A stretch of 64,000 bases of DNA from a virus (IMGVR_UViG_2744054962_000001); one strand, 5' to 3'. Counted from the stretch's first letter, positions 5,168 to 62,056 are shown. Numbers and translations are program-made. The notes: generated from the sequence alone by a model not told the origin.

Positions 5168-5177
5168 CTAATACTAG

Positions 5178-5191
5178 AAAACAATTTGTTT
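5178..5191 (+). promoter_or_regulatory. Conserved palindrome AAACAAnTTGTTT upstream of extended SD (family member)
   Basis: AAACAATTTGTTT 20 bp upstream of ATG 5211; same motif recurs at 17422, 32912, 45666, 55884, 56613. Confidence 0.4.
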
Positions 5192-5210
5192 AAAAAACAA
5201 AGGAAAGCAC

Positions 5211-6551
5211 ATGACCGAACTTTGCCATACAGGACGCGGGCTGTCCGAAGAGTTTGATGAAGATTTCCAGAACAGACTGACGGCATATTTTTGTCGTGAT
5301 CACGAGTTTCTTACTCGTGCGGGAGATCTGGTTGTGCCTAGCCAATTTGCCAATGCGGCCAATGCCATATTGGTTAATATGGTTTCGGGCTATTACCGTA
5401 TGTACAAGAGCGCGCCCTCTTCATCTGCAATTCTGGATATGCTTAAGCGTGCGAAACGCGATAAGACTATCCGTGAGGAACTATTCGCCGATGTTGTTGC
5501 TGCGTTTAAGCGCATCCTTGCAGAAAAATTGTCCGATACCTCGTACATGGTTGACCAGGTATCAACCTTCGCAAAAAGCGTAGCGTTTGATGATGCTCTG
5601 ATTAAGGCTGCTGAACTGAAAGAGAAAGGCGACTTTCAGGGGGCGATGGCAATCATGGCCAAGGTTCAGCAGATTGGATCGAACGAAGCGACCGGAATCT
5701 ATGACTACTACACCTCCGCAAGTGAGCGATTGAAAGCGCGTGAATATGAGGCTTCAGAGGAGTATGTACCAAACAGTATTACAACTGGACTCCCTCTTCT
5801 CGATAGGTTGCTGTACCAAAAAGGCTGGGCAAAGCGCGAAATGGTGCTCTTCATGGGGTTCGCTAAATCCGGTAAATCGACCGCAATGGGTGAGTTTTCC
5901 ATAAACGCAACGCTTGCTGGCTACAATGTTCTGTATCTCTCGCTGGAGGTTCACACCACCATTTTATCCGACCGTTTTGATGCAAGATTGTCGGAGACGG
6001 AAATGTCCAAGCTGGTGGAACGGCGCGATGAGGTTCATCGTAAGTTGGCAGAGTTGGGAGCCACGAAGGGGATTGGTAGTTTGTGGGTTGTTGAGCGTCC
6101 GTCAGGAAGTATGTCACCGGCAGACCTGGATCGTATGCTTAACAGCATGAAAGCCAATGGCATGGTGCCTGACATGGTTGTTGTCGACTACGCAGATTTG
6201 ATGCGTGCCAGTTATGACCTTCGTGATGATCGCGCCAACATTCGTAGTATCTACACCGATTTACGTGCTCTTTATGACAAGCATAACGTTGCTGGTATCA
6301 CGGCGTCGCAAACAAACCGTGAAGGTGGCGCGTCAGAAGTTGCCACAATGATGCACGCTGCCGACAACATCGAAAAAGTACGTATTGCTGACCTGGTAAT
6401 AACGATCAACAAAACCGAAGAAGAAGAAGCGAAAGGAGAGGCTCGTCTCTACTTTGCTGGTTCGCGTAACCAGCAGGGAGGGATCAGCATTCGCGTTAAA
6501 CAAAACCTCGAACAAATGCGCTTCATTGAGCGAATCTTAGACGTTACCTAA
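5211..6551 (+). CDS. Replicative DNA helicase (DnaB-like / RecA-fold)
   Basis: Walker A GFAKSGKST, Walker B-like VVVDYADLM, 446 aa, immediately upstream of primase. Confidence 0.7.
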   Translation: MTELCHTGRGLSEEFDEDFQNRLTAYFCRDHEFLTRAGDLVVPSQFANAANAILVNMVSGYYRMYKSAPSSSAILDMLKRAKRDKTIREELFADVVAAFKRILAEKLSDTSYMVDQVSTFAKSVAFDDALIKAAELKEKGDFQGAMAIMAKVQQIGSNEATGIYDYYTSASERLKAREYEASEEYVPNSITTGLPLLDRLLYQKGWAKREMVLFMGFAKSGKSTAMGEFSINATLAGYNVLYLSLEVHTTILSDRFDARLSETEMSKLVERRDEVHRKLAELGATKGIGSLWVVERPSGSMSPADLDRMLNSMKANGMVPDMVVVDYADLMRASYDLRDDRANIRSIYTDLRALYDKHNVAGITASQTNREGGASEVATMMHAADNIEKVRIADLVITINKTEEEEAKGEARLYFAGSRNQQGGISIRVKQNLEQMRFIERILDVT

Positions 6552-6557
6552 AAAATA

Positions 6558-6580
6558 AGCGTGGAGAACACCTCCACGCT
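6558..6580. terminator. Hairpin after helicase gene
   Basis: AGCGTGGAG aacac CTCCACGCT inverted repeat. Confidence 0.4.
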
Positions 6581-6632
6581 TGATTCATTGGTGAAACAAC
6601 TTTTCTTTTGCCAAACCACAAAAGAAAAACAC

Positions 6633-7814
6633 ATGAGCCTTTATGTTATATCAACATTTAGGTTGGTCACAATATTGCCTGTTAAAAGTGGAATTATCGT
6701 GAGCGAGCTGAAAGAGCTAATTACCGAATTAGATTTTGAACAATGGTTGGATACTGAAGGTATCGTTTATCGACGTGGAGGCGTGAGTACTCGCGGTCGT
6801 GAAGTGAATATCAAGGAGTGTCCGGTATGCGGCAGCTCCAACTGGAAGGTATATTTCAATCTGACCAGTGGCGTCGGTAAATGCTTCGCTGGTGATCATC
6901 CCGAAGAGATTCAGTTCAATAAGCTGGTCTTCCTCAAGCACTACAGCGGTAAATCACGACGACAGTTCGAGGAATATGTGCAGAACGCTCTTCTTTCCCA
7001 GGGGTGGGCACCAAAGAAAGAAGAGATAGTGCTTGCAAGCACAGTCGAGTTAGAGGGACCAGTTGCACTCCCTCGTCATTACGATCTTCCTATAGATGGC
7101 CATCTTCCAGACTATCTGGTTGAACGAAATATATCGCCTGAAATGGCAAAGTATTTTGACCTACGATACTGCGTCGAAGGCAAGCACGCTTATGTAGATC
7201 CGTATACAGATCAGGTTAAAGGACAGATTTTCGATATGCGAATACTGATACCGGTTTACGATCTGGATGGGGTAATGAAGACATTTCAAGGACGAGACAT
7301 TACCGGTACAGCAGAACGCCGCTACCTCTTCCCTATGCAGCTGCCGGCGTCGGGTAAGTTTCTCTACAACGGCCACAACGCAGTCGGGAAACAAACAGTC
7401 GTTGTGTGTGAAGGGGCATTTGACGTAATGGGCGTGAAGCGAGCCATCTTCGACGAAAAGACGCTGAGGGATTATGTAGAGCCAATTGGCACGTTCGGGA
7501 TGCACTTGTCCGGAAATATGAATGAGGACGCTGAAGATCAGTTGGGCGCGTTCCTGACGCTCAAGGCGCGTGGATTACGCAACGTCATCATGATGTGGGA
7601 TAGCGAGAAGCAAGCGATCCGCAACACCATGTCGGCGGCCAAACGCCTCACCAGCATCGGACTAAATGTCAAAGTGGCCTGTCTGGGCGAAGAAGGTCTC
7701 GACCCCGGCGACGCGACGCCAGAGCAGATCCTCAAAGCCTATTATCGTGCCAAGCCTTACTCCAAACAGCTGGAGTTAAAATGCAAAGTGCTCGGTATCA
7801 AGTCACTCGTGTAG
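6633..7814 (+). CDS. DNA primase (DnaG-like zinc-binding domain plus TOPRIM)
   Basis: CPVCGSS...CFAGDH zinc-ribbon-like motif and TOPRIM-like VVVCEGAFDVMG; ATG at 6633 preceded by AAAAGAAAAACAC motif; ORF track start 6561 overlaps the upstream hairpin. Confidence 0.65.
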   Translation: MSLYVISTFRLVTILPVKSGIIVSELKELITELDFEQWLDTEGIVYRRGGVSTRGREVNIKECPVCGSSNWKVYFNLTSGVGKCFAGDHPEEIQFNKLVFLKHYSGKSRRQFEEYVQNALLSQGWAPKKEEIVLASTVELEGPVALPRHYDLPIDGHLPDYLVERNISPEMAKYFDLRYCVEGKHAYVDPYTDQVKGQIFDMRILIPVYDLDGVMKTFQGRDITGTAERRYLFPMQLPASGKFLYNGHNAVGKQTVVVCEGAFDVMGVKRAIFDEKTLRDYVEPIGTFGMHLSGNMNEDAEDQLGAFLTLKARGLRNVIMMWDSEKQAIRNTMSAAKRLTSIGLNVKVACLGEEGLDPGDATPEQILKAYYRAKPYSKQLELKCKVLGIKSLV

Positions 7815-7815
7815 T

Positions 7816-8913
7816 TTAAGTTGTGGGAGACAGACGGTTCAGGACAAACGCTGCGATATTATTTAGTGCTATATTTAGCAAACTTGCATCATATGTTTGG
7901 TCGTTATCCTTAGGTTTAAAATTGCTGATACTGACTGTCTCACTGTGCTCATTTTCATAGAAACGTTTACTGCTTGAATCTAGGCGTTTGAGGACGTAAA
8001 TTTGCCCAAATTCAATCCACTCACCTTCACCATTGAGTCCGCTCCCTGTTTTGACTGAGATGAAGTACTTTGCCAGCTTGGTTGTAATGCAGTCTTCATT
8101 TTTTTCTATGCAAACCTTAATGCCGGCGGCTTTCAAACTACGATAAATGCTGTTTGGATATGCCCCACTATAGATTTCGCTGCTTTCAATGATAATGACG
8201 TCGTATTCTTCCTTTGGCTCAATAGATAAAGCTTCAGGCTCCAAATCATCCTTGTGAAAAATAAATCCTAAAAGACGCTCAAGTTCATCTGTTAATTTGA
8301 ACATGGGGTTCGCTTGGATCTCGCCAGCCCTGTCTTCGTAGACGAGCCCCGAGGTTATGAGCTTATTTAGCGATCTCAGAGCCATTCCACTTTTTTGTGA
8401 TGTGAGGCTAACTTGGGCTAATACAGTTGATTTATAGCCTTTTATTGGCGAGCTTGTTGTGATGTAAAGTTTGCGCGCATATTCAATATCAAAGCAGGTT
8501 AACCCACTCAGTATGTGGATAAAAAATAGTTTTTCATCGTCGTTAAGGCTGCTGCGGGCTAGGCTTACCGTCAAGCGAATGTAGTATTCTGTTTTCTTGT
8601 CTTCATCATCAAGCACGAGCTTTTTGACTAACGCCGAAAAGTGTTCTCTTGAGATATCGACCTCATCGTCGCAAATTTCACCAATGCCCATAATGTAACG
8701 GTTGAATCGATCACGACAAGTCGTCGCATTTATCTCTGAGAACAACGTGAACATTTTTTCCGCTGCCTCAATATGAGGTCCAACAAGCGGTATAGATTTG
8801 GCAAACGCCAAACCAGTTTCTTTCAATACCTTCCTGTGTTGCATCACGTTTTTGGACAACGTTGTCATAGACCTAAGCCTTGTGTGTTTAACGTATGAGT
8901 TAAGTGAAATCAT
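7816..8913 (-). CDS. Hypothetical protein, orphan minus-strand gene within replication cluster
   Basis: 365-aa ORF on opposite strand to both neighbours, lower GC than flanks; no recognisable catalytic motif. Confidence 0.5.
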   Translation of the reverse strand: MISLNSYVKHTRLRSMTTLSKNVMQHRKVLKETGLAFAKSIPLVGPHIEAAEKMFTLFSEINATTCRDRFNRYIMGIGEICDDEVDISREHFSALVKKLVLDDEDKKTEYYIRLTVSLARSSLNDDEKLFFIHILSGLTCFDIEYARKLYITTSSPIKGYKSTVLAQVSLTSQKSGMALRSLNKLITSGLVYEDRAGEIQANPMFKLTDELERLLGFIFHKDDLEPEALSIEPKEEYDVIIIESSEIYSGAYPNSIYRSLKAAGIKVCIEKNEDCITTKLAKYFISVKTGSGLNGEGEWIEFGQIYVLKRLDSSSKRFYENEHSETVSISNFKPKDNDQTYDASLLNIALNNIAAFVLNRLSPTT

Positions 8914-9051
8914 ATAGAAGTGACCTGACAGCTACAACTGGACAAGATTAAGAGCATTTTTTATAAACGAAAATAAACGCCTACATTGATAAGTAGATAC
9001 ATACTTATATTTCTGTAAGAATATGCTCGACGAAGGAATTGAGGAACCTTT

Positions 9052-17453: not shown

Positions 17454-19562
17454 ATGTCTAAAAAACGTTCCATCAAAGAGGTTCAGGACTTCCGTGACAG
17501 TGTAAAACGAGTAGTCGCTCTCCTTTCAGGTAAAAACATCCCTGTTGCAGAACGAGGGGACGACGCTTATGTACGCTATAACGATGATGGAGAGCCAATT
17601 CTCGTAAACATCCCATCAATCCCGGATAACGCAACACCGGCATTGATGAATGCTGTGCGCGGATTTCTCGATCATGAGGTTGCTCACATTTTGTTTACCG
17701 ATATTCGTGTGTCCAACAAAATGAGAGAAAAAGGACGCGTTCCTTCCTGGTCGCTATGGAATGCCTTAGAAGACGTGTTCATCGAGCGAAAAATGGGTCA
17801 GGTCTTTAACGGAACAAGACGTAATCTGATGGCAACTCAGCGCCTTATAATCGAAAAAGTCTTTAAACCAAAGGCTTCAGAGGCTATTGCTTATTGTGGC
17901 AAAGATCAGCGCGCGCTTTTTCTAAACTTCTTTCTCTGTCCGGTTGTAAGAGCCTGGGATGGCCAAGCACCGTTCGTAGATTTCATGGATGAATATTGGC
18001 CTGTCATTGAGAAACCAATTTCATTATTAAAAGAACATGGTATCGATGTGGCCGTGCGTAACATGTCTTGCACCGAGGATTGTGTAAAGGTGGCTGCGAC
18101 CATAGCTAAGATCCTCAAAGACACTGAAAGTGAAAGCAAAGGTAAGGAGTCAGCTCCGGGAAAAACTTCCGATCCTTCAGACGCTGACCAGACGGATGCC
18201 TCTGGAGAAAACAATGAAGATAACGAAGATCATGAGACACCCTCAGCGTTAGATAATCACAAATCTATCAAATCAGAATCACACAGTAAGCACAAACATG
18301 ATAATAATGACAGTGATGATTTAGATAATTCTGAATCATCAGAAACAATATTCGATGATACAGAAAATGATAAAGAGGTATCAGATTCTGATGCTTCTGA
18401 TAACGCGGCGTCAGAATCATTAACCGCTGACCACGAAAAAAGAAAAACGACAGAAGACGGCTCTTCAGATATTCCAACTCCGTCAAAAATGAGTCTGGAA
18501 GAGGCTTTAGAGGAGCTGGATAGCATAGAAGATGAAGTCGGAGGCATGACAGAAGATGCTCTATCCGAAACGATTAAAAGCGAGTTAACAGAAAGCTCGA
18601 AAAGCGAATACAGGCCATACAATCGCTCATACGACTTCATCGGCTCGATTGATCAGGCAGAAGCCCATATCAAACGGCTTATTAAAACATTCTCCGATAT
18701 TGATTTAGGAGGATGTCCAATCAGCCGCTATCGCATCGTTCCTGAAGGCAACCAGCTCTTCGACAAATATATTGAAAAGCATCTTTCGTCAGGTGTTTCG
18801 TCGACGCTGGCAAAAGACCTGGAGCGAGCAATAGCAAGCAGAAACAGAGTTCAGTTTATACCGGGCCAGCGTCGGGGGCGCATTCATGGTTCTAGTATCT
18901 ACAGATTAGCAATGAATGATGATCGCGTGTTTCGTAAAAAAGAAGAATCTAAAGCCGTTAACGCCTGTGTTCAACAAGTGATTGATTTATCAGGTTCAAT
19001 GAGGGGTATAACGATACAATTGGCTCTTGCAAGTGCATATACCATCGCCGATGCCCTTGATCGAATAAATGTTCCCAACATTATCACCGGCTTCACTACA
19101 TTTGGTAGTCATATGGCGGCAGGAGAACTTAAGGCTGTCAAGTATGAGTTCTCTCGCTTTGAATCTTTAATGCTACCTATCATCAAAAATTGGAATGAAA
19201 AGGTAAATTCTCGCGAAGTTCGCTCACGTATGGGGTGCGTAGGCTACACATTCCCACTTCTTAATAACGTGGATGGTGAAAGCATAGCCAGCCTTGCATC
19301 GTTATTTTCCGGTCGCATGGAGGACAGGAAGATCATGCTTGTTCTGAGCGATGGCGAGCCGTGGGCTGTTGGGAGAGGTTTTGACGCTCATTTGCGTTCG
19401 GTTGCGAAGCAAATTGAAACGCAGACTGACATTGATTTGATGGCAATTGGCATCATGACTGACGCACCGGAGAGATTTTACTCAAATCATGCCCTGGTAA
19501 CGAGCGTTGATAGTCTTGGTTCATCTGTAGTTACTGAACTATCTCGTATCATTTTAAAGTGA
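17454..19562 (+). CDS. CobT-like protein with acidic Ser/Asp-rich linker and C-terminal vWA domain
   Basis: MIDAS-like DLSGSM motif in C-terminal third; long acidic low-complexity middle; upstream of AAA+ CobS-like gene. Confidence 0.55.
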   Translation: MSKKRSIKEVQDFRDSVKRVVALLSGKNIPVAERGDDAYVRYNDDGEPILVNIPSIPDNATPALMNAVRGFLDHEVAHILFTDIRVSNKMREKGRVPSWSLWNALEDVFIERKMGQVFNGTRRNLMATQRLIIEKVFKPKASEAIAYCGKDQRALFLNFFLCPVVRAWDGQAPFVDFMDEYWPVIEKPISLLKEHGIDVAVRNMSCTEDCVKVAATIAKILKDTESESKGKESAPGKTSDPSDADQTDASGENNEDNEDHETPSALDNHKSIKSESHSKHKHDNNDSDDLDNSESSETIFDDTENDKEVSDSDASDNAASESLTADHEKRKTTEDGSSDIPTPSKMSLEEALEELDSIEDEVGGMTEDALSETIKSELTESSKSEYRPYNRSYDFIGSIDQAEAHIKRLIKTFSDIDLGGCPISRYRIVPEGNQLFDKYIEKHLSSGVSSTLAKDLERAIASRNRVQFIPGQRRGRIHGSSIYRLAMNDDRVFRKKEESKAVNACVQQVIDLSGSMRGITIQLALASAYTIADALDRINVPNIITGFTTFGSHMAAGELKAVKYEFSRFESLMLPIIKNWNEKVNSREVRSRMGCVGYTFPLLNNVDGESIASLASLFSGRMEDRKIMLVLSDGEPWAVGRGFDAHLRSVAKQIETQTDIDLMAIGIMTDAPERFYSNHALVTSVDSLGSSVVTELSRIILK

Positions 19563-19657
19563 ACAAAACAGCCTTAACGATAAGTAACCACTTACGATAG
19601 ATAATGATATATTTATATAAGAAGTTGAACGCTCATTAGAAAACAAAGGAAAAACGC

Positions 19658-20893
19658 ATGACTACTACTGCACTGCAAAATGAAAAAAATCCTTCTGATT
19701 ACCTTGTTTGCAAATGGTGCGGAAAATCATTTCACTATTTTAAGTCCCATGTAGCCAATGGTAATTGCGAGGGCATTCCTGAGTCAGTAAAAGATGCCGA
19801 TCCTGACACCGTACTGAAAATGTACACAACACAGTTTCCAGATGAGCCAACGCTATCGAAAAAGGCACTTGATGCAATTCAAGCTAAACGTGCCGAGCAA
19901 AAAAGCGAAATGACCAAATCATCTGGCGTGACCAGTAGCCCAGGCTACACAGGCACAGTTGAGTACAAGACAGATCTGGTCGCAGCTCACGAACTGCTAA
20001 ATGTAACGGTGAAAGAACTCGGAACAAAACGTGGGACGCCGCTCATGGTTAGCGTCAACGTCAATACGCCGTTTCCAGAGTTCGTTCCAGAAGTGAAGAA
20101 GGGCTACGTATATGGCGACTTCGAACTGATCAAAGACATTTTCATGATGCTTGAACTTGGCATACCTGGCTATTTGTGGGGTCATGCAGGAACAGGCAAA
20201 TCTTCATTGCCTACACAACTATGTGCTTTGCTCAATCGTCCGTTAATCCGTGCCCAACATACAGCATCAATGGAAGAGGCTCATGTTACGGGACAAATTC
20301 TGGCGCGTGATGGCTCTACGTATTTCGAGCCTGGCTTGCTTGCGCTCGCAATGAAGCATGGCTGGGTTTACCTCGCGGATGAATACGACTTTGCGTTTCC
20401 ACAAATTCTTGGCGTGTATCAGCCAGTGCTGGAAGGTGAAGCGTTAGTCATCAAAGAGGCAACTCCAGAATGGCGTCGCATTACTCCGCATGAACGGTTT
20501 GCTTTCATTGGCACTGGCAACACGAACGGATCTGGTGATGAAACCGGCTTGTACCAGGGTACAAACATCCAGAACGCCGCGAACTTTTCGCGTTTTGGCA
20601 TCGTTTCGAATGTGAAATACATGAGCAAAGAGGCAGAGATCAACATGTTGATAAATGCCGGTATCGTGGATGAATACGCAGAAAAGATGGTTAAGTTTGC
20701 CGGTATCGTTCGCGATGGATACGAAGAACACCTTATCAGTCAGCCAATTGGCCCTCGTGAACTTTTGTTGTCGGCCAAGATTGGAATGATGCGAGGCGAC
20801 TTTGTGACAGGTATTGAGCGTTCTTTCATTAACAAACTCCCTTCAGCTTCTGCACAAGCGGCTCGTGAAGTTGTTCAAAAAATATTTGGTTGA
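19658..20893 (+). CDS. CobS-like AAA+ ATPase (MoxR-type)
   Basis: Walker A GHAGTGKSS, Walker B-like VYLADEYD, 411 aa. Confidence 0.6.
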   Translation: MTTTALQNEKNPSDYLVCKWCGKSFHYFKSHVANGNCEGIPESVKDADPDTVLKMYTTQFPDEPTLSKKALDAIQAKRAEQKSEMTKSSGVTSSPGYTGTVEYKTDLVAAHELLNVTVKELGTKRGTPLMVSVNVNTPFPEFVPEVKKGYVYGDFELIKDIFMMLELGIPGYLWGHAGTGKSSLPTQLCALLNRPLIRAQHTASMEEAHVTGQILARDGSTYFEPGLLALAMKHGWVYLADEYDFAFPQILGVYQPVLEGEALVIKEATPEWRRITPHERFAFIGTGNTNGSGDETGLYQGTNIQNAANFSRFGIVSNVKYMSKEAEINMLINAGIVDEYAEKMVKFAGIVRDGYEEHLISQPIGPRELLLSAKIGMMRGDFVTGIERSFINKLPSASAQAAREVVQKIFG

Positions 20894-21099
20894 TCGTGCG
20901 TAAAGGATGTTTCGGCTCTCTTATCGCTGCTTCTGAAACTGGTAAGGCTTGTCTGGTATGTCCAGACAAGCCCGATTGTCACCAATCAGCAAAAGAAGTT
21001 GCGATTTCGATGTATGGGAAGTTCGTAGGCTTCCCCAATGACAAAATCAAAAAAACCATAAAGGTAAAAACACATGAAAGCACTGATGGTTCGAACTGA
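20890..21099 (+). CDS. Small Cys-rich hypothetical protein
   Basis: CLVCPDKPDC motif; overlaps both neighbours. Confidence 0.3.
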   Translation: MIVRKGCFGSLIAASETGKACLVCPDKPDCHQSAKEVAISMYGKFVGFPNDKIKKTIKVKTHESTDGSN

Positions 21100-24000
21100 C
21101 TTCTCACTTGGGGAGTCGGCTCTAAAAGCAGAAAACGCGGTGAAGATTGCCAGAGAAGCTGGCTACACCGCTGTAATTTCAGCAGATAGCATGAATATTG
21201 CGAGTGTTATTCCACTACAACGTGCCGCTGGTGACGACATGGCGGTTATTTGTGGTGTGAAACTAAATATCGTTGATGATCCTACATACGAGCACCGGGC
21301 TAAACTTGCTAAAGAATCTATGAGATGTATGGAATCATTAGAGCGGGGACGTAACTACTCGTTTACCGCTCTAATTAAAAATGAGCAAGGATATCGCGAC
21401 ATCTGCGAACTAATGACGGTGGCCAACACACGAGAACAGTTCTACTTTGTACCGCGTCTCTCGCTCGAACAGTTGGTTTCTACATATGCCAAAGGCAACA
21501 TCATCCTGCTCACTTCCGACATCGGTAGCGTGTTCCAACGCAACGATTTTGCAAAAATCATAAGCTCACTGATTACAGCGGGCGGGAAAGACAACTTCTA
21601 TAGCGTGGTTTATCCGCACCCTACCCCATTCTACGACCAGATTAACGTCCGAGCGATGAAAGTAGCCAGCGCACTGAAAATAGAGCCAGTAGCGTTCTAT
21701 CCCGCTTATTACGAATCGATCGACGATGCAGACATTAAAGACATTGCGCACATGGTTACGAACAACATAAAAATCGACCAGCCGCATCGTCTGCGTATCC
21801 CCCACCAGCGAGATAACGCCATCAATGGTCGTCGCCATCTCCTTGAGGCGCTTAAAGCCTTCTCCGTTCGCATGGATGTGCCGGTAACAGCTGCAATGGC
21901 CTCAACAACGCAGGACTCCATTATCGATGCCTGCACATGGCGCTGGCATGAATTGCCACCAGCACTGCCCAAGATGGCAGACGACGAACCTGCAACGCTG
22001 ATGAAACTGGCTGTTGCAGGGCTGCGTAAACGTCTTACCACAAAAGAGTTTGGATACACACCACCTGCTTCTGAGAACAGGGTTTATGTTGAGCGGCTAA
22101 AGTACGAAATGAACACGCTGACTCGCCTGGGATTTTGTGGTTACTTCCTGATGGTACGCGATCTGATGAATCACAGCCGTGAAACTGGCATTCCTGTCGG
22201 GCCTGGTCGTGGTTCCTCTGCCGGTTCTCTGGTGGCGTGGTGCATAGGCATAACCAACGTCGACCCAATCCGTCACGGTCTTCTGTTTGAGCGTTTCATC
22301 AACCCTGAGCGTCTCGACTTGCCGGATGCGGACTTGGACTTCAGCCAGGCACGTCGCCATGAGGTGATCGAGTATCTGAATGAACGCTACGGCGAAGATT
22401 ACGTTGCAGGCATTCCGAACTTCACCTACCTGGGCGCAGCCTCTGCACTACGTGACACCGCTCGTATTTATGGTGTGGAGTCCGCAGATATGGCGGTATC
22501 AAAAGAACTGAAGAACGTCGAGGATGATAGCCTTCCATTGGAAGAGCTGCGCGAACAACTGGCAAGTCTCGACAAATACGCAACAAAATATCCTGATGCA
22601 TTCAATGCAGCCTGCAAGTTACAAAGCCTTATGCGTGGCTTTGGTAGACATGCGGCAGGGATGATTGTAGCAGGTGTTCCTCTGACAGAACGTACACCGG
22701 TTGAGCGCCGTGGTGACGCGCGTTGTATCGCATTTGACAAGCGTTACTGCGAGGCTATGGGCCTAATTAAGCTGGACGTGCTTGGCCTGGCAACTCTCGA
22801 TTTGCTCGATAGTGCAAAACGCTACATAAAAGAGAACACAGGTGAAGATATCAATCTTGATGCCATTTCTCTTGAAGATCGCAAGGTGCTGGATGGTTTT
22901 GCTGCAGGGTATACACAGGGCGTATTCCAGCTGGAGTCCGGCCCCATGCGCAAGCTGCTTAAAGATCTAGGCGGTGGCATTGAGCCAATGAGCTTTAAAA
23001 CCGTTGTCGCCACGACCGCACTCTTCCGACCTGGCCCGATCCAATCCGGCATGTTGGACGACTATGTCTCCGTGGCCAAAGGCTTCATGGCTCCACATTC
23101 AATTCATCCGCGTCTTGAGGAAGTCACCCGGGAGACTAATGGTGTTTTGCTCTATCAGGAACAAATCATGCAAAGTTCCCGAGTACTTGCCGGGTTCTCT
23201 ATGGCCGAAGCAGACGCTCTGCGTTCCGCTATCGGTAAAAAGAACATGGATAAGATGAAAGCGATCGGCAGCGATTTTGTAGAACGAGCACAAGCAGGCT
23301 GGGTGACACTGTCACTCAAAAATGGAGGCACTGTAGAGGTTCACAAACACGCAAAACTGGATTGCTCAGACGGTAAGCGTAGAAGCTACAGCGAGGCTAT
23401 TAGTGACGGCATAGACTACGTGGAGATCGTCTCTGAACAAGAAGGTCTCAGTAAGGAAAAAGCCCAAGAAATATGGGACGCCTTTGAGAAGTTCGGTGGA
23501 TATGCCTTCAATAAATCACACTCCGTTGCTTATTCTTTAATCAGTTATCAGTCTATGTGGTTAAAGACACATTACCCTGCTGAGTTCTTCGCTGCTGCGC
23601 TCACCATTCTGGGCGAGGATAAGCACCAGGGGCTGGTTAAGGATGCGCTGACCTATGGCATTCGCGTATTGCCACCAGACGTTAACGTGTCATCTAACCG
23701 AATCGAGATCCGCACGCTTGAAGATGGCAGCCAGGTGCTGTATGCGCCATTCTCTGCTGTGAAAGGCTGTTCTGAAAATGGTTGTCAGGCAATTATGCGT
23801 GCGCGTGAGAAAGTTGGTGGCAAATTCGAGTCAGTGGCACAATTCGATGAAGCGGTCGAGAAGCGTGCATGTAACAGTCGTGTACGCGAGTCGCTTCATA
23901 AAGTAGGGGCTTTTGCGTCAATTGAGCCAGGCAGTCTGCCAGCAACTGATCCTGAACGACTGCGCGACCAGGCTGAGCTGATGGGCAATCTCATCATTGA

Positions 24001-24580
24001 CGCTGTTAAAGCATCACGTCCGTTCGAAATGAATCCTAAGCGTTCTGCCGAAATCAACGTACTCATGACACGTATGGCGGCTGAAATGGGCTTGGGTGAG
24101 GAGTTGATACGCCCGACTATTGGTATTAAACCCAAAATCATGATCATTCTGGACAATGCGAACGGCAATGACGCTCGTACCGGCTACTTCATGGAGAACG
24201 GATACGACGACTTTAAGGCAAAACTACTGACAGTTGGAGATCTGCGCATGGGCGATCTTTATGTCACGGGTGTTTGTAAGAAGGTTAAGGACAAAGAGAA
24301 AGACTATACCAAAGACGAGATAGGCCAGTTCACAGACTTTATGCGGGAAGAAATTAATCTTGTACGACCAACCTACATTTTGACGTGTGGTAGTCGTTCA
24401 ACCGCACTATTTAACAATAAGAGTAAACCATCAGATCTGATTGGTCGTAAGGAGTACTTCCCAGAGCTTGATGCAACCGTCTTCTACGGATTTAACCCGA
24501 ATATCCTGTACTTCCGACCGGAAGAAGGAGAGCGACTGGAGGCCATTCTGGCTGATATCGCGGAGACAATAAATAAGTAA
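21074..24580 (+). CDS. dnaE: DNA polymerase III alpha subunit (DnaE-type, PHP domain)
   Basis: 1168 aa; conserved blocks GYFLMVRDL, PVGPGRGSSAGSLVAW, LFERFINPER, GYAFNKSHSVAYSLISYQ match bacterial DnaE. Confidence 0.8.
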   Translation: MKALMVRTDFSLGESALKAENAVKIAREAGYTAVISADSMNIASVIPLQRAAGDDMAVICGVKLNIVDDPTYEHRAKLAKESMRCMESLERGRNYSFTALIKNEQGYRDICELMTVANTREQFYFVPRLSLEQLVSTYAKGNIILLTSDIGSVFQRNDFAKIISSLITAGGKDNFYSVVYPHPTPFYDQINVRAMKVASALKIEPVAFYPAYYESIDDADIKDIAHMVTNNIKIDQPHRLRIPHQRDNAINGRRHLLEALKAFSVRMDVPVTAAMASTTQDSIIDACTWRWHELPPALPKMADDEPATLMKLAVAGLRKRLTTKEFGYTPPASENRVYVERLKYEMNTLTRLGFCGYFLMVRDLMNHSRETGIPVGPGRGSSAGSLVAWCIGITNVDPIRHGLLFERFINPERLDLPDADLDFSQARRHEVIEYLNERYGEDYVAGIPNFTYLGAASALRDTARIYGVESADMAVSKELKNVEDDSLPLEELREQLASLDKYATKYPDAFNAACKLQSLMRGFGRHAAGMIVAGVPLTERTPVERRGDARCIAFDKRYCEAMGLIKLDVLGLATLDLLDSAKRYIKENTGEDINLDAISLEDRKVLDGFAAGYTQGVFQLESGPMRKLLKDLGGGIEPMSFKTVVATTALFRPGPIQSGMLDDYVSVAKGFMAPHSIHPRLEEVTRETNGVLLYQEQIMQSSRVLAGFSMAEADALRSAIGKKNMDKMKAIGSDFVERAQAGWVTLSLKNGGTVEVHKHAKLDCSDGKRRSYSEAISDGIDYVEIVSEQEGLSKEKAQEIWDAFEKFGGYAFNKSHSVAYSLISYQSMWLKTHYPAEFFAAALTILGEDKHQGLVKDALTYGIRVLPPDVNVSSNRIEIRTLEDGSQVLYAPFSAVKGCSENGCQAIMRAREKVGGKFESVAQFDEAVEKRACNSRVRESLHKVGAFASIEPGSLPATDPERLRDQAELMGNLIIDAVKASRPFEMNPKRSAEINVLMTRMAAEMGLGEELIRPTIGIKPKIMIILDNANGNDARTGYFMENGYDDFKAKLLTVGDLRMGDLYVTGVCKKVKDKEKDYTKDEIGQFTDFMREEINLVRPTYILTCGSRSTALFNNKSKPSDLIGRKEYFPELDATVFYGFNPNILYFRPEEGERLEAILADIAETINK

Positions 24581-24587
24581 TAAAGAA

Positions 24588-24610
24588 AACCCGCCTGTTG
24601 GCGGGTTTAT
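24588..24610 (+). terminator. Intrinsic terminator after dnaE
   Basis: AAACCCGCC tgtt GGCGGGTTT. Confidence 0.6.
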
Positions 24611-29382: not shown

Positions 29383-31722
29383 ATGGCAAAAGGAAAATCC
29401 GCACTGGCACTTGCTCTGAAAAAGAAAATCGGTAGCAACGACGAAATTCAGAAAGTAACTCATTGGATTGATACAGGCTTTCCACCGTTAAACAAAGCTA
29501 TTTCTGGTCGTTACGATGGCGGCTTCCCATGTGGTCGTATCGTCGAAGTATTCGGTCCTCCAAGCGCGGGGAAATGTGTTACCGCAGACACCATGCTGCT
29601 GACGGAGCGTGGAATGGTAACAGTGAAAGAGTTGTTTGAGATTGAAGGGTACAAAGCGACATGCACTACTCGCGATGTAGAGCATAACGTTGGACTCATC
29701 AATGAAAATGGCGTGATAGAGAAGACCTCACACCTGACATGGAACAACCGTCGCAAATTCAAGCGTATTAAGCTGGCATCAGGCGGTTATATCGAGGCTA
29801 CGTTCCGTCACCCAATCCGTGTGGTTGACGACTTAGGTAATGTCGTCTGGCGACATGCTGAAAAAATCAGTGTAGGCGACACGATTCCTTCAATGGTTGG
29901 CACACATCAATTCGGCGATCAGCACCTGGATGCCAATATCGCAAAACTGATGGGCTATTTAATTGCTGACGGATACGTGGCCTCTGAAAATTCAGTGAAT
30001 TTTTCTAACACAGATCCTTTCATCAAGGATGAGTACTACCGCCTCATTTCGCTGGTATCAGACAAGATGCCAGTTACGAGAAAACATAACGGCTCGGAAG
30101 ACCATGTGCTGTTTAGCAAAGAGGTGCGTTCGCTGCTTTTTAAAGAATATGGTCTGGAGTATGAGAAAGCTGCTGGCAAGCAGGTTCCGTTGAGTGTGCG
30201 TCGCGCCAATAGCGAGGCTCAAATTGCATTCCTTCGCGGCTACTTTGAGCTGGAATGCCACGTCAATGATGGTCGCTGCATTGAGGTTGTGAGCGCGAGT
30301 GGGCTGCTGCTACAGCAAATTCGCCTCATGCTCCTGAATCTGGGGATTACGTCAACTATCTCTGAAAAACACGTCGCGGGTTATGAAAATACATATTACC
30401 GGCTGTCATTCAGTGGCTCTAATTACGACCTTTTTCTGTCAACGATTGGTTTCGAATCTCCGGCACGTTTATCAGTGGCAACCAAACGGGACATTGGTTT
30501 TGACCGCACTTACTCAGGCTATGTTCCGCACATCAGCGGCTTAGTGAAATCACTCTACGAGTCGCTCACCAAGACCACCCGTGAAGACTACGCTCTGGTA
30601 GACCACGTTATTGGCCGCGGCGATCGTGTCGGAATAGACAAACTGCGAGAAATCTATGTCTCCTTCATTGGCAGAAAGAATCGTTTTAACGAGCATCTGT
30701 TTGCACAACTGGCAGCGGTAATTGGCTCTAACTTGTTCTACGACGAAGTCGTGGCTATTGAGGAAGGTGAAGCACCAACGTTCGACGTAGCGATGCCGGA
30801 AACACACTCTTTCTGGTCTAACGGGATTATCAGCCACAACACATTCCTTGCAACAGCAGCGATGATCTCCGCTCAAAAACAAGATGGTCTGGCGGTATTC
30901 CTCGATCATGAAAACAGTTTTGACGTTGGCCTGGCTGTAGCCAATGGCCTGAACGCAGATGAGGATGACGGTCAGTGGGTATACAAGCAGCCTGATACCT
31001 TCGAAGACTCTGTAGAGTTGATCGGCACAATACTTAAATTGGTACGTGATGAAGAGCTTATCCCCGAATCAGCACCTATCTGTATCGTGGCTGACTCTCT
31101 TGCGTCTATGGTTCCGAACTCCAAAGCCGAGAAGTTCGAAAAGATGGCTGAAGGCACTGCCAAAGACAAAGATCAGCTAAACATGAACGACAATACGGCA
31201 CTGGCTCGTGCGACGAGTGCGAACTTCCCTACTCTGGCTTTGTGGGCACGCAAATACAACGCCTGCATCATCTTCTTGAATCAGGTTCGCACAAAAATCG
31301 GTGTAATGTTTGGCGACCCTACTACGTCGCCAGGTGGAGATTCACCGAAGTTCTACGCATCTGTACGTATCCGTCTTGGTGCATCGGTGATGAAGGATGG
31401 TAAAGAGAAGATCGGTCAGGACGTAGGCGCAGAATGCATCAAAAACAAAGTTGCACCACCGTATGGCAAATGCACCTGGAAATTCTACTTCGATCCTACT
31501 CGTGGCCTCGACGTTATCGAGTCGCTCGTCGAGTACATGCTGGAAGAAGGATACCTGCCAAAGAACGCCAGCGGTCGAGTAGAAATTGGTGACAAGAAAT
31601 ACACCAAATCACAGATCGTCGAGATGTATCGGGAGAAGCCACTGGCTGAAATCATTGCGGCTTTGCAGGCAATCGACGACCGAAGAGCAAAAGACAACCC
31701 CACCGAGTCAGTAGAAGAGTAA
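29383..31722 (+). CDS. RecA/UvsX-like recombinase interrupted by an intein
   Basis: P-loop GPPSAGK split from TFLATAAMISAQ by 422 aa; extein about 357 aa. Confidence 0.75.
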   Translation: MAKGKSALALALKKKIGSNDEIQKVTHWIDTGFPPLNKAISGRYDGGFPCGRIVEVFGPPSAGKCVTADTMLLTERGMVTVKELFEIEGYKATCTTRDVEHNVGLINENGVIEKTSHLTWNNRRKFKRIKLASGGYIEATFRHPIRVVDDLGNVVWRHAEKISVGDTIPSMVGTHQFGDQHLDANIAKLMGYLIADGYVASENSVNFSNTDPFIKDEYYRLISLVSDKMPVTRKHNGSEDHVLFSKEVRSLLFKEYGLEYEKAAGKQVPLSVRRANSEAQIAFLRGYFELECHVNDGRCIEVVSASGLLLQQIRLMLLNLGITSTISEKHVAGYENTYYRLSFSGSNYDLFLSTIGFESPARLSVATKRDIGFDRTYSGYVPHISGLVKSLYESLTKTTREDYALVDHVIGRGDRVGIDKLREIYVSFIGRKNRFNEHLFAQLAAVIGSNLFYDEVVAIEEGEAPTFDVAMPETHSFWSNGIISHNTFLATAAMISAQKQDGLAVFLDHENSFDVGLAVANGLNADEDDGQWVYKQPDTFEDSVELIGTILKLVRDEELIPESAPICIVADSLASMVPNSKAEKFEKMAEGTAKDKDQLNMNDNTALARATSANFPTLALWARKYNACIIFLNQVRTKIGVMFGDPTTSPGGDSPKFYASVRIRLGASVMKDGKEKIGQDVGAECIKNKVAPPYGKCTWKFYFDPTRGLDVIESLVEYMLEEGYLPKNASGRVEIGDKKYTKSQIVEMYREKPLAEIIAALQAIDDRRAKDNPTESVEE
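29575..30840 (+). mobile_element. Intein with LAGLIDADG homing endonuclease domain inserted in the RecA P-loop
   Basis: Begins with Cys after GPPSAGK, ends SHN followed by Thr; LAGLIDADG-like blocks LMGYLIADGYV and FLRGYFELECHV. Confidence 0.7.
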
Positions 31723-61800: not shown

Positions 61801-61935
61801 CCGCAGGTCCTGAATCAGTTCCCGTTCCAGGTCCGATTCGCTCTGGTAGCTGTCGCCTGTTTGCTCAGCTTTGATGTACTTATCAAGGACGATAAAGTTA
61901 TTGGATTCAGCAATGGTGTGTGTTTGATGAGTCAT
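58819..61935 (-). CDS. hsdR: Type I restriction enzyme R subunit (Type IC, EcoR124I-like)
   Basis: 1038 aa; N-terminus [24 protein letters not shown] matches my recollection of EcoR124I HsdR; helicase motifs TGSGKT and DECHRS. Confidence 0.8.
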
Positions 61936-62056
61936 AGCGCATCCTTTGTGCCGCCTGGCAAGGGCCGGAAGGGCGTTAAGAGTGACTTCCGGCGCGTAAA
62001 AAATAGTCTATATACAGACCGGGTGTTAAGGAGGCCCGGTCGGTAGCAATGGTCAA

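What the first reader, a model, noticed from the sequence alone, without database searches (positions are those of the whole stretch)
17454..20893. CobT-like vWA protein with long acidic linker paired with a CobS-like AAA+ ATPase inside a replication cluster
This is a MoxR-type AAA+ ATPase plus vWA/MIDAS pair. The vWA protein carries a Ser/Asp/Glu-rich low-complexity middle region of about 150 aa. Such pairs recur in large phages but their role there is unresolved; AAA+/vWA pairs act as chaperone or remodelling machines.
Basis: partly seen in the sequence, partly recalled or inferred. Interest (0 to 1): 0.4.

Follow-up and report, generated by a model that had tools for sequence, protein, structure and literature searches.

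The report
Phage "CobS/CobT" motor-protease pair
Two genes of an E. coli phage-plasmid annotated as vitamin B12 (cobalt chelatase) genes most likely encode an ATP-driven motor and an adaptor with an apparently intact zinc-protease motif, co-transcribed with the phage DNA polymerase; the cellular target is still unknown.

Summary
Window 17454-19562 encodes a 702-aa CobT-like protein. It has an N-domain, a 164-aa Ser/Asp/Glu-rich linker of net charge -36, and a VWA domain with a DxSxS MIDAS motif. Window 19658-20893 encodes a 411-aa CobS-like AAA+ ATPase of the AAA_5 type. The window is an SSU5-like phage-plasmid, 99.6% identical to E. coli phage Cyrano/pLF82.

It is present in 149 of the 150 best homologues. 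True cobaltochelatase CobT, including the solved structure, has DSMAL(R/K) at that position in 120 of 120 sequences.

Several results argue against B12 chelation. Both proteins score far below the CobS and CobT equivalog cut-offs. No CobN was found in the window, and the element's ribonucleotide reductase is class I.

The order repressor | CobT-CobS-DnaE is conserved in 55 of 55 DnaE-selected viral loci and across Proteobacteria. Homologues of both proteins flank ssb-bet-exo in IncC plasmids. There the ATPase (Vcrx089), with Vcrx090, is an experimentally shown anti-restriction factor.

Best reading: an early-expressed, ATP-driven protein-remodelling and proteolytic machine. I favour a counter-defence role, with a replication role close behind. 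This is a known kind of gene pair whose function is unresolved.

The parts
16505..16891 (-). HTH repressor (CYRAN_45 in phage Cyrano), transcribed divergently from the CobT-CobS-DnaE operon
   Evidence: Pfam HTH_19, E 7.8e-4. Annotated 'putative repressor' in OV696614. Listed as lysogeny-expressed, 10x over local background, in PMC9928086. A homologue lies directly upstream of CobT in 18 of 24 distant viral loci.
16892..17142 (.). Intergenic control region between the repressor and the early operon
   Evidence: Sequence read. GGTAAG/CTTACC palindromes at 16923-16936 and further half-sites at 17043 and 17109. Function inferred, not tested.
17143..17355 (+). Small 70-aa ORF, first gene of the operon (CYRAN_46)
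   Evidence: phrog_2627, E 2.2e-40. Homologue present upstream of CobT in close relatives L083-L085 and L087. No Pfam or NCBIfam hit.
17454..18116 (+). CobT-like N-domain (aa 1-221): zincin-like fold with HEVAH at aa 74-78 (nt 17673-17687) and E106, D107, E111
18117..18608 (+). Acidic Ser/Asp/Glu-rich disordered linker (aa 222-385)
   Evidence: 51 D+E, 15 K+R, 43 S+T and 18 hydrophobic residues in 164 aa. It is the most variable part: megablast and tblastn matches to SSU5-type relatives skip it. Homologue lengths range from 627 to 864 aa.
18609..19562 (+). CobT-like C-terminal part (aa 386-702): shaft segment plus VWA domain with MIDAS D511-x-S513-x-S515 (nt 18984-18998)
   Evidence: Pfam CobT_C, E 3.7e-82. 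The family profile aligns to solved CobT 9uka_G residues 226-618, E 3e-61, including the shaft region and MIDAS. D511, S513, S515 and D607 are invariant.
19658..20893 (+). CobS-like AAA+ ATPase. N-terminal 140-aa extension with a Cys/His motif; AAA_5 core with Walker A (nt 20180-20203) and Walker B (nt 20366-20383)
   Evidence: Pfam AAA_5. phmmer to solved CobS 9ujv_A, E 1.7e-25, then Midasin, CbbQ and NorQ. phrog_249, E 2e-106. Catalytic residues conserved in 44 relatives. No CobS_N or CbbQ_C domain found.
20890..21099 (+). Small 69-aa Cys-rich ORF overlapping the CobS stop codon and the DnaE start
   Evidence: phrog_6337, E 2.2e-44. Its coordinates overlap both neighbours. A weak match (E 3.4e-4) to a 234-aa ORF directly upstream of DnaE in L096.
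21074..24580 (+). DnaE-type DNA polymerase III alpha, last gene of the conserved trio
   Evidence: Pfam PHP, DNA_pol3_alpha, finger and HHH_6 domains. CobT-CobS-DnaE order found in 55 of 55 DnaE-selected viral loci with enough upstream sequence, and in about 19 of 23 bacterial genome loci with enough flank.
24587..24608 (.). G+C-rich hairpin just after the dnaE stop codon; likely end of the operon
   Evidence: 9-bp stem with 6 GC pairs, reported on the - strand. Only one weak terminator-like site (23893, inside dnaE) lies on the + strand between 17143 and 24580. Consensus match only.

Best explanation
The pair is a mobile-element version of the CobS/CobT motor-adaptor machine and has nothing to do with cobalt insertion.

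Proposed mechanism, by analogy with the solved CobST complex. The CobS-like protein forms a MoxR-class AAA+ ring. This ring grips the conserved 'shaft' segment that precedes the VWA domain of the CobT-like protein. The CobT-like protein is an adaptor with three working parts: a MIDAS/VWA domain that binds a client protein, a long acidic flexible tether, and an N-terminal zincin domain. Unlike true CobT, this zincin domain keeps a complete HExxH...ED..IE metal and catalytic signature, so it probably cleaves protein.

The genes are the first large genes of the early operon that faces the lysogeny repressor, and they are co-transcribed with dnaE. The machine would therefore be made when the element enters the lytic cycle or a new cell.

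I commit to this reading: ATP-driven remodelling coupled to zinc-dependent cleavage of a protein client that would otherwise block the element's DNA. The most likely client class is host defence nucleases such as type I restriction enzymes, as for the homologous Vcrx089 ATPase of IncC plasmids. A host or phage replisome component is nearly as likely.

Shown: domain architecture, motif conservation, divergence from true CobT, synteny, and operon position.
Inferred: ring and shaft coupling, protease activity, timing of expression, and the client.

Sub-probabilities: not a cobalt chelatase, about 0.9. Remodelling/protease machine, about 0.6. Client is a defence system, about 0.3. Client is replication-related, about 0.25.
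For: 1. Architecture and catalytic motifs are intact.

2. The zincin signature is under strong selection.
- HExxH is present in 149 of the 150 best hits of an exhaustive search of 1.84 billion representatives. The one exception is a fragment.
- H74, E75, H78, E106, D107 and E111 are invariant in 125 full-length homologues that share 27-61% identity with the window protein.
- The signature is also present in very distant viral loci and in the IncC plasmid homologue.

3. True CobT has lost the signature.
- The solved CobT (9uka_G) reads D-S-M-A-L-R at the aligned position.
- 120 of 120 cellular CobT N-domains carry S/A, M/I and R/K in place of H, E and H, and none has an HExxH anywhere.
- The solved CobT N-domain is described as M48C-peptidase-like (bioRxiv 10.64898/2026.07.21.739949).

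4. The shaft and VWA region aligns to solved CobT at E 3e-61, so the motor-adaptor coupling is plausibly retained.

5. Several results argue against a chelatase.
- NCBIfam equivalog scores are 68 against a cut-off of 759 (CobT) and 85 against 559 (CobS).
- None of the 20 window ORFs of at least 180 aa scanned against Pfam matches a CobN family. The only ORFs above 1000 aa in the window are DnaE and HsdR, and CobN is about 137 kDa.
- The element's RNR is class I, with R1 and R2 subunits.

6. Early-operon position. The repressor CYRAN_45 is divergent from CYRAN_46-49. The repressor, but not CobT or CobS, is listed among lysogeny-expressed genes.

7. The trio CobT-CobS-DnaE is conserved in 23 of 25 CobT-selected viral loci, 55 of 55 DnaE-selected viral loci and about 19 of 23 bacterial loci.

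8. There is an independent link to DNA-entry functions. In IncC plasmids a Vcrx089-type ATPase (29-30% identical to the window protein) and a zincin-VWA protein flank ssb-bet-exo. vcrx089-090 gives 25-fold protection against a V. cholerae type I R-M system, acting in the recipient cell (PMC7498323). It gives 400-900-fold protection against EcoKI and EcoBI (PMC11602122).
Against: - No experiment exists on this protein pair or on any close relative.
- In true CobT the helix corresponding to the HExxH helix contacts the CobS lid domain through R76 and D80. The conserved motif could therefore serve as an interface or a structural metal site rather than a catalytic one.
- The anti-restriction homologue works with Vcrx090, which has no counterpart in the window. 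The IncC zincin-VWA protein itself has not been tested.
- The window ATPase is equally distant from Vcrx089 (28.9% identity) and true CobS (27.6%), so function cannot be transferred by homology from either.
- Strict linkage to dnaE can be read as favouring a replication role. It can also be simple vertical inheritance of a whole module: helicase, primase, ligase and SSB are syntenic too.
- Early timing is inferred from gene position and from absence in one published table.
Confidence: 0.55

Rival explanations
1. Replication accessory. The AAA+/VWA/zincin machine remodels or processes a replisome component, so that the phage-encoded DnaE, helicase and primase can take over DNA synthesis. Possible clients are a host clamp, clamp loader, DnaB or SSB, or the phage DnaE itself.
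For: - CobT-CobS-DnaE are in one operon with overlapping or closely spaced genes and no convincing internal terminator.
- The trio is invariant in 55 of 55 DnaE-selected viral loci down to 35% DnaE identity, and in Proteobacteria, a cyanobacterium and Desulfosarcina.
- The surrounding genes are all replication or recombination genes.
- In IncC plasmids the homologous pair flanks ssb-bet-exo.
- The pair is intact in the Y. pestis pMT1-type plasmid.
Against: - The same pair occurs in viral loci with no DnaE within 8 kb and in the opposite gene order, and in conjugative plasmids. The function therefore cannot be specific to DnaE.
- The whole module is syntenic, so linkage may reflect descent rather than function.
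- No MoxR/VWA system is known to act in bacterial replication (own knowledge).
Confidence: 0.25
2. Virion-assembly chaperone and protease. This was proposed for the MoxR plus metallopeptidase-vWA pair of T4-like jumbo phages, by analogy with the MoxR/vWA tail-development proteins of Acidianus two-tailed virus (PMC7824862).
For: - The same domain architecture was described for jumbo phages.
- MoxR/VWA pairs are classic assembly chaperones (Discussion of the CobSTN preprint).
Against: - Here the genes lie in the repressor-proximal replication operon, not among the structural genes.
- Homologues of both proteins are carried by IncC conjugative plasmids, which make no virions.
Confidence: 0.08
3. 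Genuine auxiliary metabolic genes. The viral CobS/CobT would join a host CobN to raise cobalamin synthesis (proposal of PMC8651126).
For: - The closest solved structures and Pfam families are cobaltochelatase CobS and CobT.
- The shaft, VWA and MIDAS elements are conserved.
- Some hosts of related elements are alphaproteobacteria that use the aerobic CobN pathway (Paracoccus, Phyllobacterium, Ancylobacter; host list, pathway from own knowledge).
Against: - Scores are far below the equivalog cut-offs.
- The N-domain keeps the HExxH motif that every sampled true CobT has lost.
- No CobN was found in the window, and the RNR is class I, which does not depend on B12.
- The hosts of this element and its closest relatives are Escherichia, Klebsiella, Salmonella and Yersinia. 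These have no CobN-dependent pathway (established knowledge, not tested here).
- The genomic context is replication, not cob genes.
Confidence: 0.03
4. A defence or exclusion cargo system of the element, of the vWA-MoxR conflict-system type, which protects the lysogen against other phages.
For: - vWA-MoxR systems are described as conflict systems (PMC7159879, listed).
- The element carries other defence and addiction cargo: a type I R-M system and HicAB.
Against: - No PADLOC model matches either protein. The only hit is a DrmE match at E 0.0026, consistent with noise.
- The genes are part of the conserved core next to dnaE, not of the variable cargo.
- They are not listed among lysogeny-expressed genes.
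Confidence: 0.05

Closest known systems
Aerobic cobaltochelatase motor-adaptor CobS/CobT (EC 6.6.1.2; PDB 9uka and related entries; bioRxiv 10.64898/2026.07.21.739949)
   Same: - A two-gene AAA_5 ATPase plus adaptor pair.
- The adaptor has the same three-part layout: an M48-like N-domain, a disordered acidic linker, and a shaft plus VWA/MIDAS C-domain.
- It is the best sequence match among solved structures for both proteins.
- Walker motifs, sensor-1 and D73 (equivalent to the CobS-contacting D80 of CobT) are conserved.
   Different: - Sequence identity is only about 28% (ATPase core).
- Scores are far below the equivalog cut-offs.
- The N-domain has an intact HExxH where true CobT has DSMAL(R/K).
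- The linker is 164 aa against about 90 aa.
- CobS has a 140-aa N-terminal extension with a Cys/His motif and no CobS_N domain.
- There is no CobN partner in the window.
- The gene order is CobT then CobS, inside a replication operon.
Vcrx089/Vcrx090 anti-restriction module of the hde operon of IncC plasmids and SXT/R391 elements (PMC7498323, PMC11602122)
   Same: - Vcrx089 is an AAA_5 ATPase, 29-30% identical to the window's CobS-like protein over about 290 residues.
- The same IncC gene cluster also encodes a zincin-linker-VWA protein with HEAAH, NVLEDCRIER and a DMSSS MIDAS motif.
- Both are carried by mobile elements of enterobacteria and sit next to DNA-metabolism genes.
   Different: - Vcrx090 has no homologue in the window.
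- Vcrx089 has a CbbQ_C domain that is not detected in the window protein.
- In IncC plasmids the ATPase and the VWA gene are separated by five genes.
- The anti-restriction role of the VWA protein is untested.
MoxR AAA+ plus metallopeptidase-vWA pair of T4-like (group 2.2) jumbo phages (PMC7824862), and the 'cobS' plus 'peptidase' genes of T4-like cyanophages (PMC8651126)
   Same: - The same domain architecture: a metallopeptidase N-domain fused to vWA, paired with a MoxR-class ATPase.
- Distant viral loci of this kind retain the HExxH, ED.RIE and MIDAS motifs.
- The fold of the N-domain is shared with many viral VWA proteins.
   Different: - The gene order is CobS then CobT, and no DnaE is nearby.
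- The role proposed there is virion assembly or cobalamin synthesis.
- Identity to the window proteins is only 22-28%.
Midasin/Rea1 and other MoxR-VWA remodellers (CbbQO, NorQD, RavA-ViaA)
   Same: - An AAA_5 ring works together with a D/E-rich linker and a MIDAS domain that docks a client.
- Midasin, CbbQ and NorQ are the next-best solved matches of the ATPase.
- NorD is a weak match of the VWA profile.
   Different: - None of these carries a zincin domain.
- Their clients (pre-ribosome, Rubisco, NO reductase) are unrelated.
- Midasin has all parts in one polypeptide.

Membership tests
Aerobic cobaltochelatase CobS (NCBIfam TIGR01650 equivalog) | Whole-protein score at or above the curated equivalog cut-off (558.55 bits) | tested here: not met
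   84.8 bits.
Aerobic cobaltochelatase CobS | AAA_5 core with Walker A/B, sensor-1 and arginine residues | tested here: met
   Pfam AAA_5, E 2.1e-15. G175, G178, G180, K181, D241, E242, N288, R312, R352 and R367 are conserved with true CobS.
Aerobic cobaltochelatase CobS | CobS_N N-terminal domain (PF12556), as in the Brucellaceae CobS | tested here: not met
   Present in the true CobS of L082. No hit in the window protein at E up to 10 for the N-terminus and up to 1 for the whole protein.
Aerobic cobaltochelatase CobT (NCBIfam TIGR01651 equivalog) | Whole-protein score at or above the curated cut-off (759.05 bits) | tested here: not met
   68 bits, C-terminal part only.
Aerobic cobaltochelatase CobT | C-terminal shaft plus VWA domain with MIDAS | tested here: met
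   Pfam CobT_C 275.7 bits. The profile aligns to 9uka_G residues 226-618, E 3e-61. DxSxS is invariant.
Aerobic cobaltochelatase CobT | N-domain of the inactivated (pseudo-peptidase) type: D-S/A-M/I-x-x-R/K and E-Q-A-R-V/C-E | tested here: not met
   The window has D-H-E-V-A-H and E-D-V-F-I-E. 120 of 120 cellular CobT sequences have the inactivated form.
Aerobic cobaltochelatase holoenzyme | A CobN subunit available in the element or in the host | tested here: not met
   Window: the only ORFs above 1000 aa are DnaE and HsdR, and none of the 20 ORFs of at least 180 aa scanned against Pfam matches a CobN family; the other ORFs were not scanned. Host: not testable with these tools. That E. coli lacks CobN is established knowledge, not a result obtained here.
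MoxR-class AAA+ / VWA-MIDAS remodelling pairs | AAA_5/MoxR-related ATPase encoded next to a VWA protein with an intact MIDAS motif | tested here: met
   Adjacent genes 96 bp apart. Domains; solved relatives are Midasin, CbbQ and NorQ.
Phage MoxR + metallopeptidase-vWA pair (Iyer et al. 2021) | vWA protein fused to an N-terminal HExxH metallopeptidase domain, paired with a MoxR ATPase | tested here: met
   HEVAH at aa 74-78 plus E106, D107 and E111, invariant across the family. Pairing seen.
Phage MoxR + metallopeptidase-vWA pair (Iyer et al. 2021) | Proposed association with virion morphogenesis | tested here: not met
   The pair is located in the repressor-proximal replication operon.
Vcrx089/Vcrx090 anti-restriction system | Vcrx089-type ATPase (AAA_5 + CbbQ_C) | tested here: inconclusive
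   AAA_5 is present and CbbQ_C was not detected. Identity is 28.9-30%, E 7e-27, about the same distance as to true CobS.
Vcrx089/Vcrx090 anti-restriction system | Vcrx090 partner protein | tested here: not met
   No window ORF matches at E up to 1.
Zincin metallopeptidases (M48-like) | HExxH plus a downstream acidic third ligand on a neighbouring helix | tested here: met
   Sequence motif invariant. In the model, helices 62-81 and 98-117 carry the two motifs.
Zincin metallopeptidases (M48-like) | Significant fold or profile match to a peptidase family | tested here: inconclusive
Zincin metallopeptidases (M48-like) | Zinc binding and peptide-bond hydrolysis | not testable with these tools
   Needs biochemistry.

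The most novel reading that the evidence does not exclude
The 'cobS/cobT' genes of phages, phage-plasmids, IncC plasmids and SXT elements, including the cyanophage core genes counted as B12 auxiliary metabolic genes, form one family of ATP-driven anti-defence proteases. In this reading the acidic linker acts as a DNA-mimicking bait and the MIDAS domain captures DNA-bound host nucleases such as type I restriction enzymes. The AAA+ ring extracts these clients and the zincin domain cuts them. Cellular cobaltochelatase CobT would then be a derived, protease-dead offshoot of this family.
Probability: 0.15. Interest if true: 0.75.

Novelty: new member of a known kind. Interest (0 to 1): 0.45.

Why it matters
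'cobS' and 'cobT' are among the most widely annotated auxiliary metabolic genes of phages. In this window's family alone the CobT-like protein is found on 1722 plasmid records, including the plague plasmid pMT1 type.

If the pair is a protease-motor machine rather than a chelatase, several things follow:
- Viral B12 'metabolic potential' in metagenome surveys is over-counted.
- The record annotations are wrong. Examples are 'porphyrin biosynthesis protein', 'cobalamin synthetase' and 'dimethylbenzimidazole phosphoribosyltransferase'.
- A conserved early function of a very large group of roughly 100-kb phage-plasmids remains to be identified.

The HExxH versus DSMAL(R/K) difference gives a simple sequence rule to separate the two kinds. 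The IncC anti-restriction data give a concrete phenotype to test.

Tried and rejected
- A single-protein search of viral contigs with CobS returned only near-identical SSU5-type loci.
- The first word-indexed protein search was saturated by relatives of at least 59% identity. The exhaustive representative search and alignment-based locus searches were needed.
- Searching with the C-terminal part of true CobT returned only N-terminally truncated fragments. I recovered the true CobT N-domain from a frameshifted gene in a Brucellaceae genome and confirmed it against the solved chain.
- Foldseek of the N-domain model against the PDB found nothing.
- The afdb50 library was not available.
- The profile of the phage family did not reach the N-domain of solved CobT by hmmsearch. 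Only hhalign (E 3e-4, probability 40%) and the shared Pfam family link the two N-domains.
- PADLOC gave no defence-system match.
- A neighbour-joining tree of the ATPases is star-like. It cannot say whether the window protein is closer to Vcrx089 or to true CobS.
- The supplementary TnSeq table of PMC7498323 is not held, so the effect of insertions in the IncC zincin-VWA gene could not be read.
- Literature searches for SSU5/pHCM2/pMT1 together with cobS/cobT found no functional study.
- I considered a role in supplying B12 to a class II RNR and rejected it, because the element's RNR is class I.

Full report
**What the window is.** The 4.1 kb around the finding is 99.6% identical to Escherichia phage Cyrano (OV696614), which is plasmid pLF82 of E. 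coli LF82. It is 74% identical over its more conserved part to Salmonella phage SSU5. By megablast, 770 plasmid records carry the region, in Klebsiella, Escherichia, Enterobacter, Yersinia, Salmonella and others. The window is therefore part of an SSU5-like phage-plasmid.

- The first ORF matches Pfam CobT at aa 9-294 (E 4.5e-27) and CobT_C, the CobT VWA domain, at aa 492-701 (E 3.7e-82).
- The second ORF matches AAA_5 (E 2.1e-15).
- The MIDAS motif DLSGS is at aa 511-515. Walker A GHAGTGKS is at 175-182 and Walker B D241-E242.
- The middle region, aa 222-385, has 31% Asp+Glu, 26% Ser+Thr, 11% hydrophobic residues and net charge -36. The other 538 residues have a net charge of +8.
- The neighbours are a DnaB-like helicase, primase, ligase, glutaredoxin, integrase, an HTH regulator, DnaE, gp32-like SSB, 5'-3' exonuclease, RecA, Mre11/Rad50-like proteins, class I ribonucleotide reductase and thymidylate synthase.

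**Closest solved relatives.** The ATPase is most similar to cobaltochelatase CobS (9ujv_A, E 1.7e-25), then to Midasin, CbbQ and NorQ. The VWA half of the other protein is most similar to cobaltochelatase CobT (9uka_G, 21vt_A). A profile of 125 homologues aligns to CobT residues 226-618 at E 3e-61. That span includes the 'shaft' segment, which the authors of the structure saw inserted into the CobS ring pore. The motor-adaptor design is thus the CobS/CobT design.

Both proteins nevertheless miss NCBI's curated equivalog cut-offs by a wide margin: 85 against 559 bits, and 68 against 759 bits.

**The N-terminal domain.** The N-terminal 220 residues contain HEVAH at aa 74-78.

- An exhaustive search of 1.84 billion representative proteins with this domain found 1125 cluster representatives at E up to 0.001.
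- Of the best 150, 149 carry HExxH. The exception is a fragment that lacks the region.
- In an alignment of 125 full-length homologues sharing 27-61% identity with the window protein, the invariant columns of the N-domain include H74, E75, H78, E106, D107 and E111. Those of the C-domain include the MIDAS residues D511, S513 and S515.
- The consensus is GF(L/I/V)DHE(V)(A/G)H...N..ED..(I/V)E(R/K).M, a complete zincin signature.

I then recovered the N-domain of true CobT from a Brucellaceae genome and confirmed that it is the solved chain 9uka_G.

- Profile alignment places D-S-M-A-L-R of true CobT on D-H-E-V-A-H of the phage protein, and E-Q-A-R-V-E on E-D-V-F-I-E.
- In 120 of 120 cellular CobT N-domains (50-100% identical to the solved one), the three catalytic and metal positions are S/A, M/I and R/K. 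None has an HExxH anywhere.
- The authors of the CobSTN structure describe CobT_N as resembling an M48C peptidase domain.
- My AlphaFold model of the phage N-domain (pLDDT 92.9) has the same topology: one helix, a three-stranded sheet, then helices.

In short, true CobT is a protease-dead relative, and the phage clade keeps what looks like a live active site. Whether it cleaves anything is inferred, not shown.

**Arguments against cobalt chelation.**

- The motif difference and the equivalog scores described above.
- None of the 20 window ORFs of at least 180 aa scanned against Pfam matches a CobN family. CobN is about 137 kDa, and the only ORFs above 1000 aa in the window are DnaE and HsdR.
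- The element's ribonucleotide reductase is class I, with R1 and R2 subunits. The suggested link to B12-dependent nucleotide reduction (PMC8651126) therefore does not apply.
- The hosts of this element and its close relatives are enterobacteria. By established knowledge they either lack de novo B12 synthesis or use the CobN-independent anaerobic route. I could not test this with the tools.

**Genomic context.** The gene upstream and divergent (16505-16891, - strand) is CYRAN_45, annotated as the putative repressor. It is listed among lysogeny-expressed genes of LF82, whereas CYRAN_47 to CYRAN_49 are not (PMC9928086). The operon reads:

- a small ORF (17143-17355),
- CobT-like,
- CobS-like,
- a 69-aa ORF that overlaps both neighbours (20890-21099),
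- DnaE (21074-24580),
- a G+C-rich hairpin at 24587-24608.

Only one weak terminator-like site, inside dnaE, lies on the + strand in between.

The order CobT, CobS, DnaE was checked in three independent sets of loci:

| Set of loci | Loci with the trio |
|---|---|
| Viral loci found through CobT (identity down to 27%) | 23 of 25; the other two are truncated |
| Viral loci found through DnaE, with at least 6 kb upstream (DnaE identity down to 35%) | 55 of 55 |
| Loci from one-genome-per-species bacterial assemblies, with enough flank | about 19 of 23 |

Many of the bacterial contigs are 100-118 kb. They come from Xenorhabdus, Morganella, Massilia, Paracoccus, Magnetospirillum, a cyanobacterium and others.

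The helicase, primase, ligase, the HTH regulator and the SSB are syntenic too. The linkage may therefore be inherited as a module.

More distant viral loci have the order CobS then CobT and no DnaE nearby, yet still carry HExxH, ED.RIE and MIDAS. These loci were found with motif-based patterns, so the motif count there is biased.

**An experimentally anchored relative.** A protein search of plasmids found the N-domain in several hundred conjugative plasmids. In the IncC plasmid pNDM-US-2 the gene order is as follows:

- an AAA_5+CbbQ_C ATPase,
- a hypothetical protein,
- ssb,
- bet,
- exo,
- a DUF3150 protein,
- a 598-aa zincin-linker-VWA protein with HEAAH, NVLEDCRIER and a DMSSS MIDAS motif.

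By gene order and domain content the ATPase is Vcrx089.

- Roy et al. showed that vcrx089-090 protects an incoming IncC plasmid 25-fold against a V. cholerae type I restriction system. It acts in the recipient cell (PMC7498323).
- Dimitriu et al. found 400-900-fold effects against EcoKI and EcoBI (PMC11602122).

Three caveats apply. The window ATPase is 28.9% identical to Vcrx089 and 27.6% to true CobS, so it is equidistant from both. Vcrx090 has no counterpart in the window. The IncC VWA protein has not been tested.

**Other proposals.** Iyer et al. noticed a MoxR ATPase plus metallopeptidase-vWA pair in T4-like jumbo phages and proposed a role in virion assembly (PMC7824862). The replication-operon position here and the presence in conjugative plasmids argue against that role for this family. 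PADLOC models of defence systems do not match.

**Verdict.** What is there is a member of the phage and mobile-element branch of the CobS/CobT family: a MoxR-class AAA+ motor with a zincin-acidic linker-VWA adaptor.

- It is very unlikely to be a cobalt chelatase (about 0.9 against).
- It most likely works as an ATP-driven remodelling and proteolytic machine made early, together with the phage polymerase (about 0.6).
- The client is unknown. I favour host defence nucleases (about 0.3) slightly over a replication component (about 0.25).

The architecture and the gene pair are already described in the literature, so this is a new member of a known kind. The useful additions are the sharp sequence rule that separates it from true CobT, the strict repressor-CobT-CobS-DnaE unit, and the link to the IncC anti-restriction operon. 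That link makes the function directly testable.

Noticed in passing
window 21074-24580 (C-terminal part, about 24100-24580): The phage DnaE carries a C-terminal extension of about 250 aa beyond the HHH_6 domain. It is conserved in all 17 aligned phage DnaEs (invariant M1023, L1057, Y1063, T1065, K1069, E1093, P1099, G1106, G1124, D1133). It gives a weak, sub-threshold Pfam hint to the uracil-DNA glycosylase superfamily (E 0.062).
   Followed up: partly
window 29383-31722 (+): The RecA gene is interrupted by an intein with a LAGLIDADG homing endonuclease domain. RefSeq annotates the whole ORF only as a 'LAGLIDADG family homing endonuclease'.
   Followed up: no
window 13339-13586 (+): A cluster of three tRNA genes: Asn-GTT, Thr-TGT and Ser-TGA.
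   Followed up: yes
window 14585-15139 (-): A 184-aa ORF (CYRAN_43) with no Pfam hit. It is reported as expressed 723-fold above the local background in the LF82 lysogen, by far the highest value for this element (PMC9928086).
   Followed up: no
window 58819-63394 (-): The element carries its own type I restriction-modification genes: hsdR at 58819-61935 and hsdS at 62057-63394. This is of interest if the CobS/CobT-like pair turns out to act on type I enzymes.
   Followed up: no
window 17454-20893; record OV696614: The Cyrano record names the CobT-like protein 'dimethylbenzimidazole phosphoribosyltransferase' and the CobS-like protein 'cobalamin synthetase'. These are the unrelated enzymes that bear the names CobT and CobS in Salmonella nomenclature, so this is a gene-name collision and not homology.
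   Followed up: yes
window 19658-20080 (CobS-like aa 1-140): The N-terminal extension of the ATPase begins with a Cys/His motif, CKWCGKSFHYFKSH. C18 and H26 are at least 96% conserved in the DnaE-linked clade, while the second Cys is replaced in several members. It may be a zinc knuckle. No Pfam match.
   Followed up: partly
window 16892-17453: A GGTAAGTGCTTACC palindrome at 16923-16936, with further GGTAAG/CTTACC half-sites at 17043 and 17109, lies in the repressor/operon intergenic region. A 9-bp-stem hairpin (CTGCGCGAA...TTCGCGCAG, about 17368-17402) lies between the 70-aa ORF and cobT. These are candidate operators and an RNA element.
   Followed up: no
L141 (IncC plasmid pNDM-US-2) 2804-10797: In IncC plasmids a Vcrx089-type ATPase and a zincin-linker-VWA protein bracket vcrx090, ssb, bet, exo and a DUF3150 gene. 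The VWA partner has apparently never been tested for the anti-restriction phenotype.
   Followed up: partly
L220-L247 (bacterial genome contigs): The CobT-CobS-DnaE trio sits on contigs of 100-118 kb in Xenorhabdus, Morganella, Massilia, Roseospira, Paracoccus, Ancylobacter, Faunimonas, Phyllobacterium and Magnetospirillum. This suggests that SSU5-like phage-plasmids extend far beyond enterobacteria. Copies in Halomonas (L236) and Lichenihabitans (L245) look decayed.
   Followed up: partly
L217 (Yersinia pestis plasmid, pMT1 type) 4905-10672: The integrase, HTH, small ORF, CobT-like (788 aa) and CobS-like (411 aa) module is intact right next to the caf1 F1-capsule operon of the plague plasmid.
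   Followed up: no
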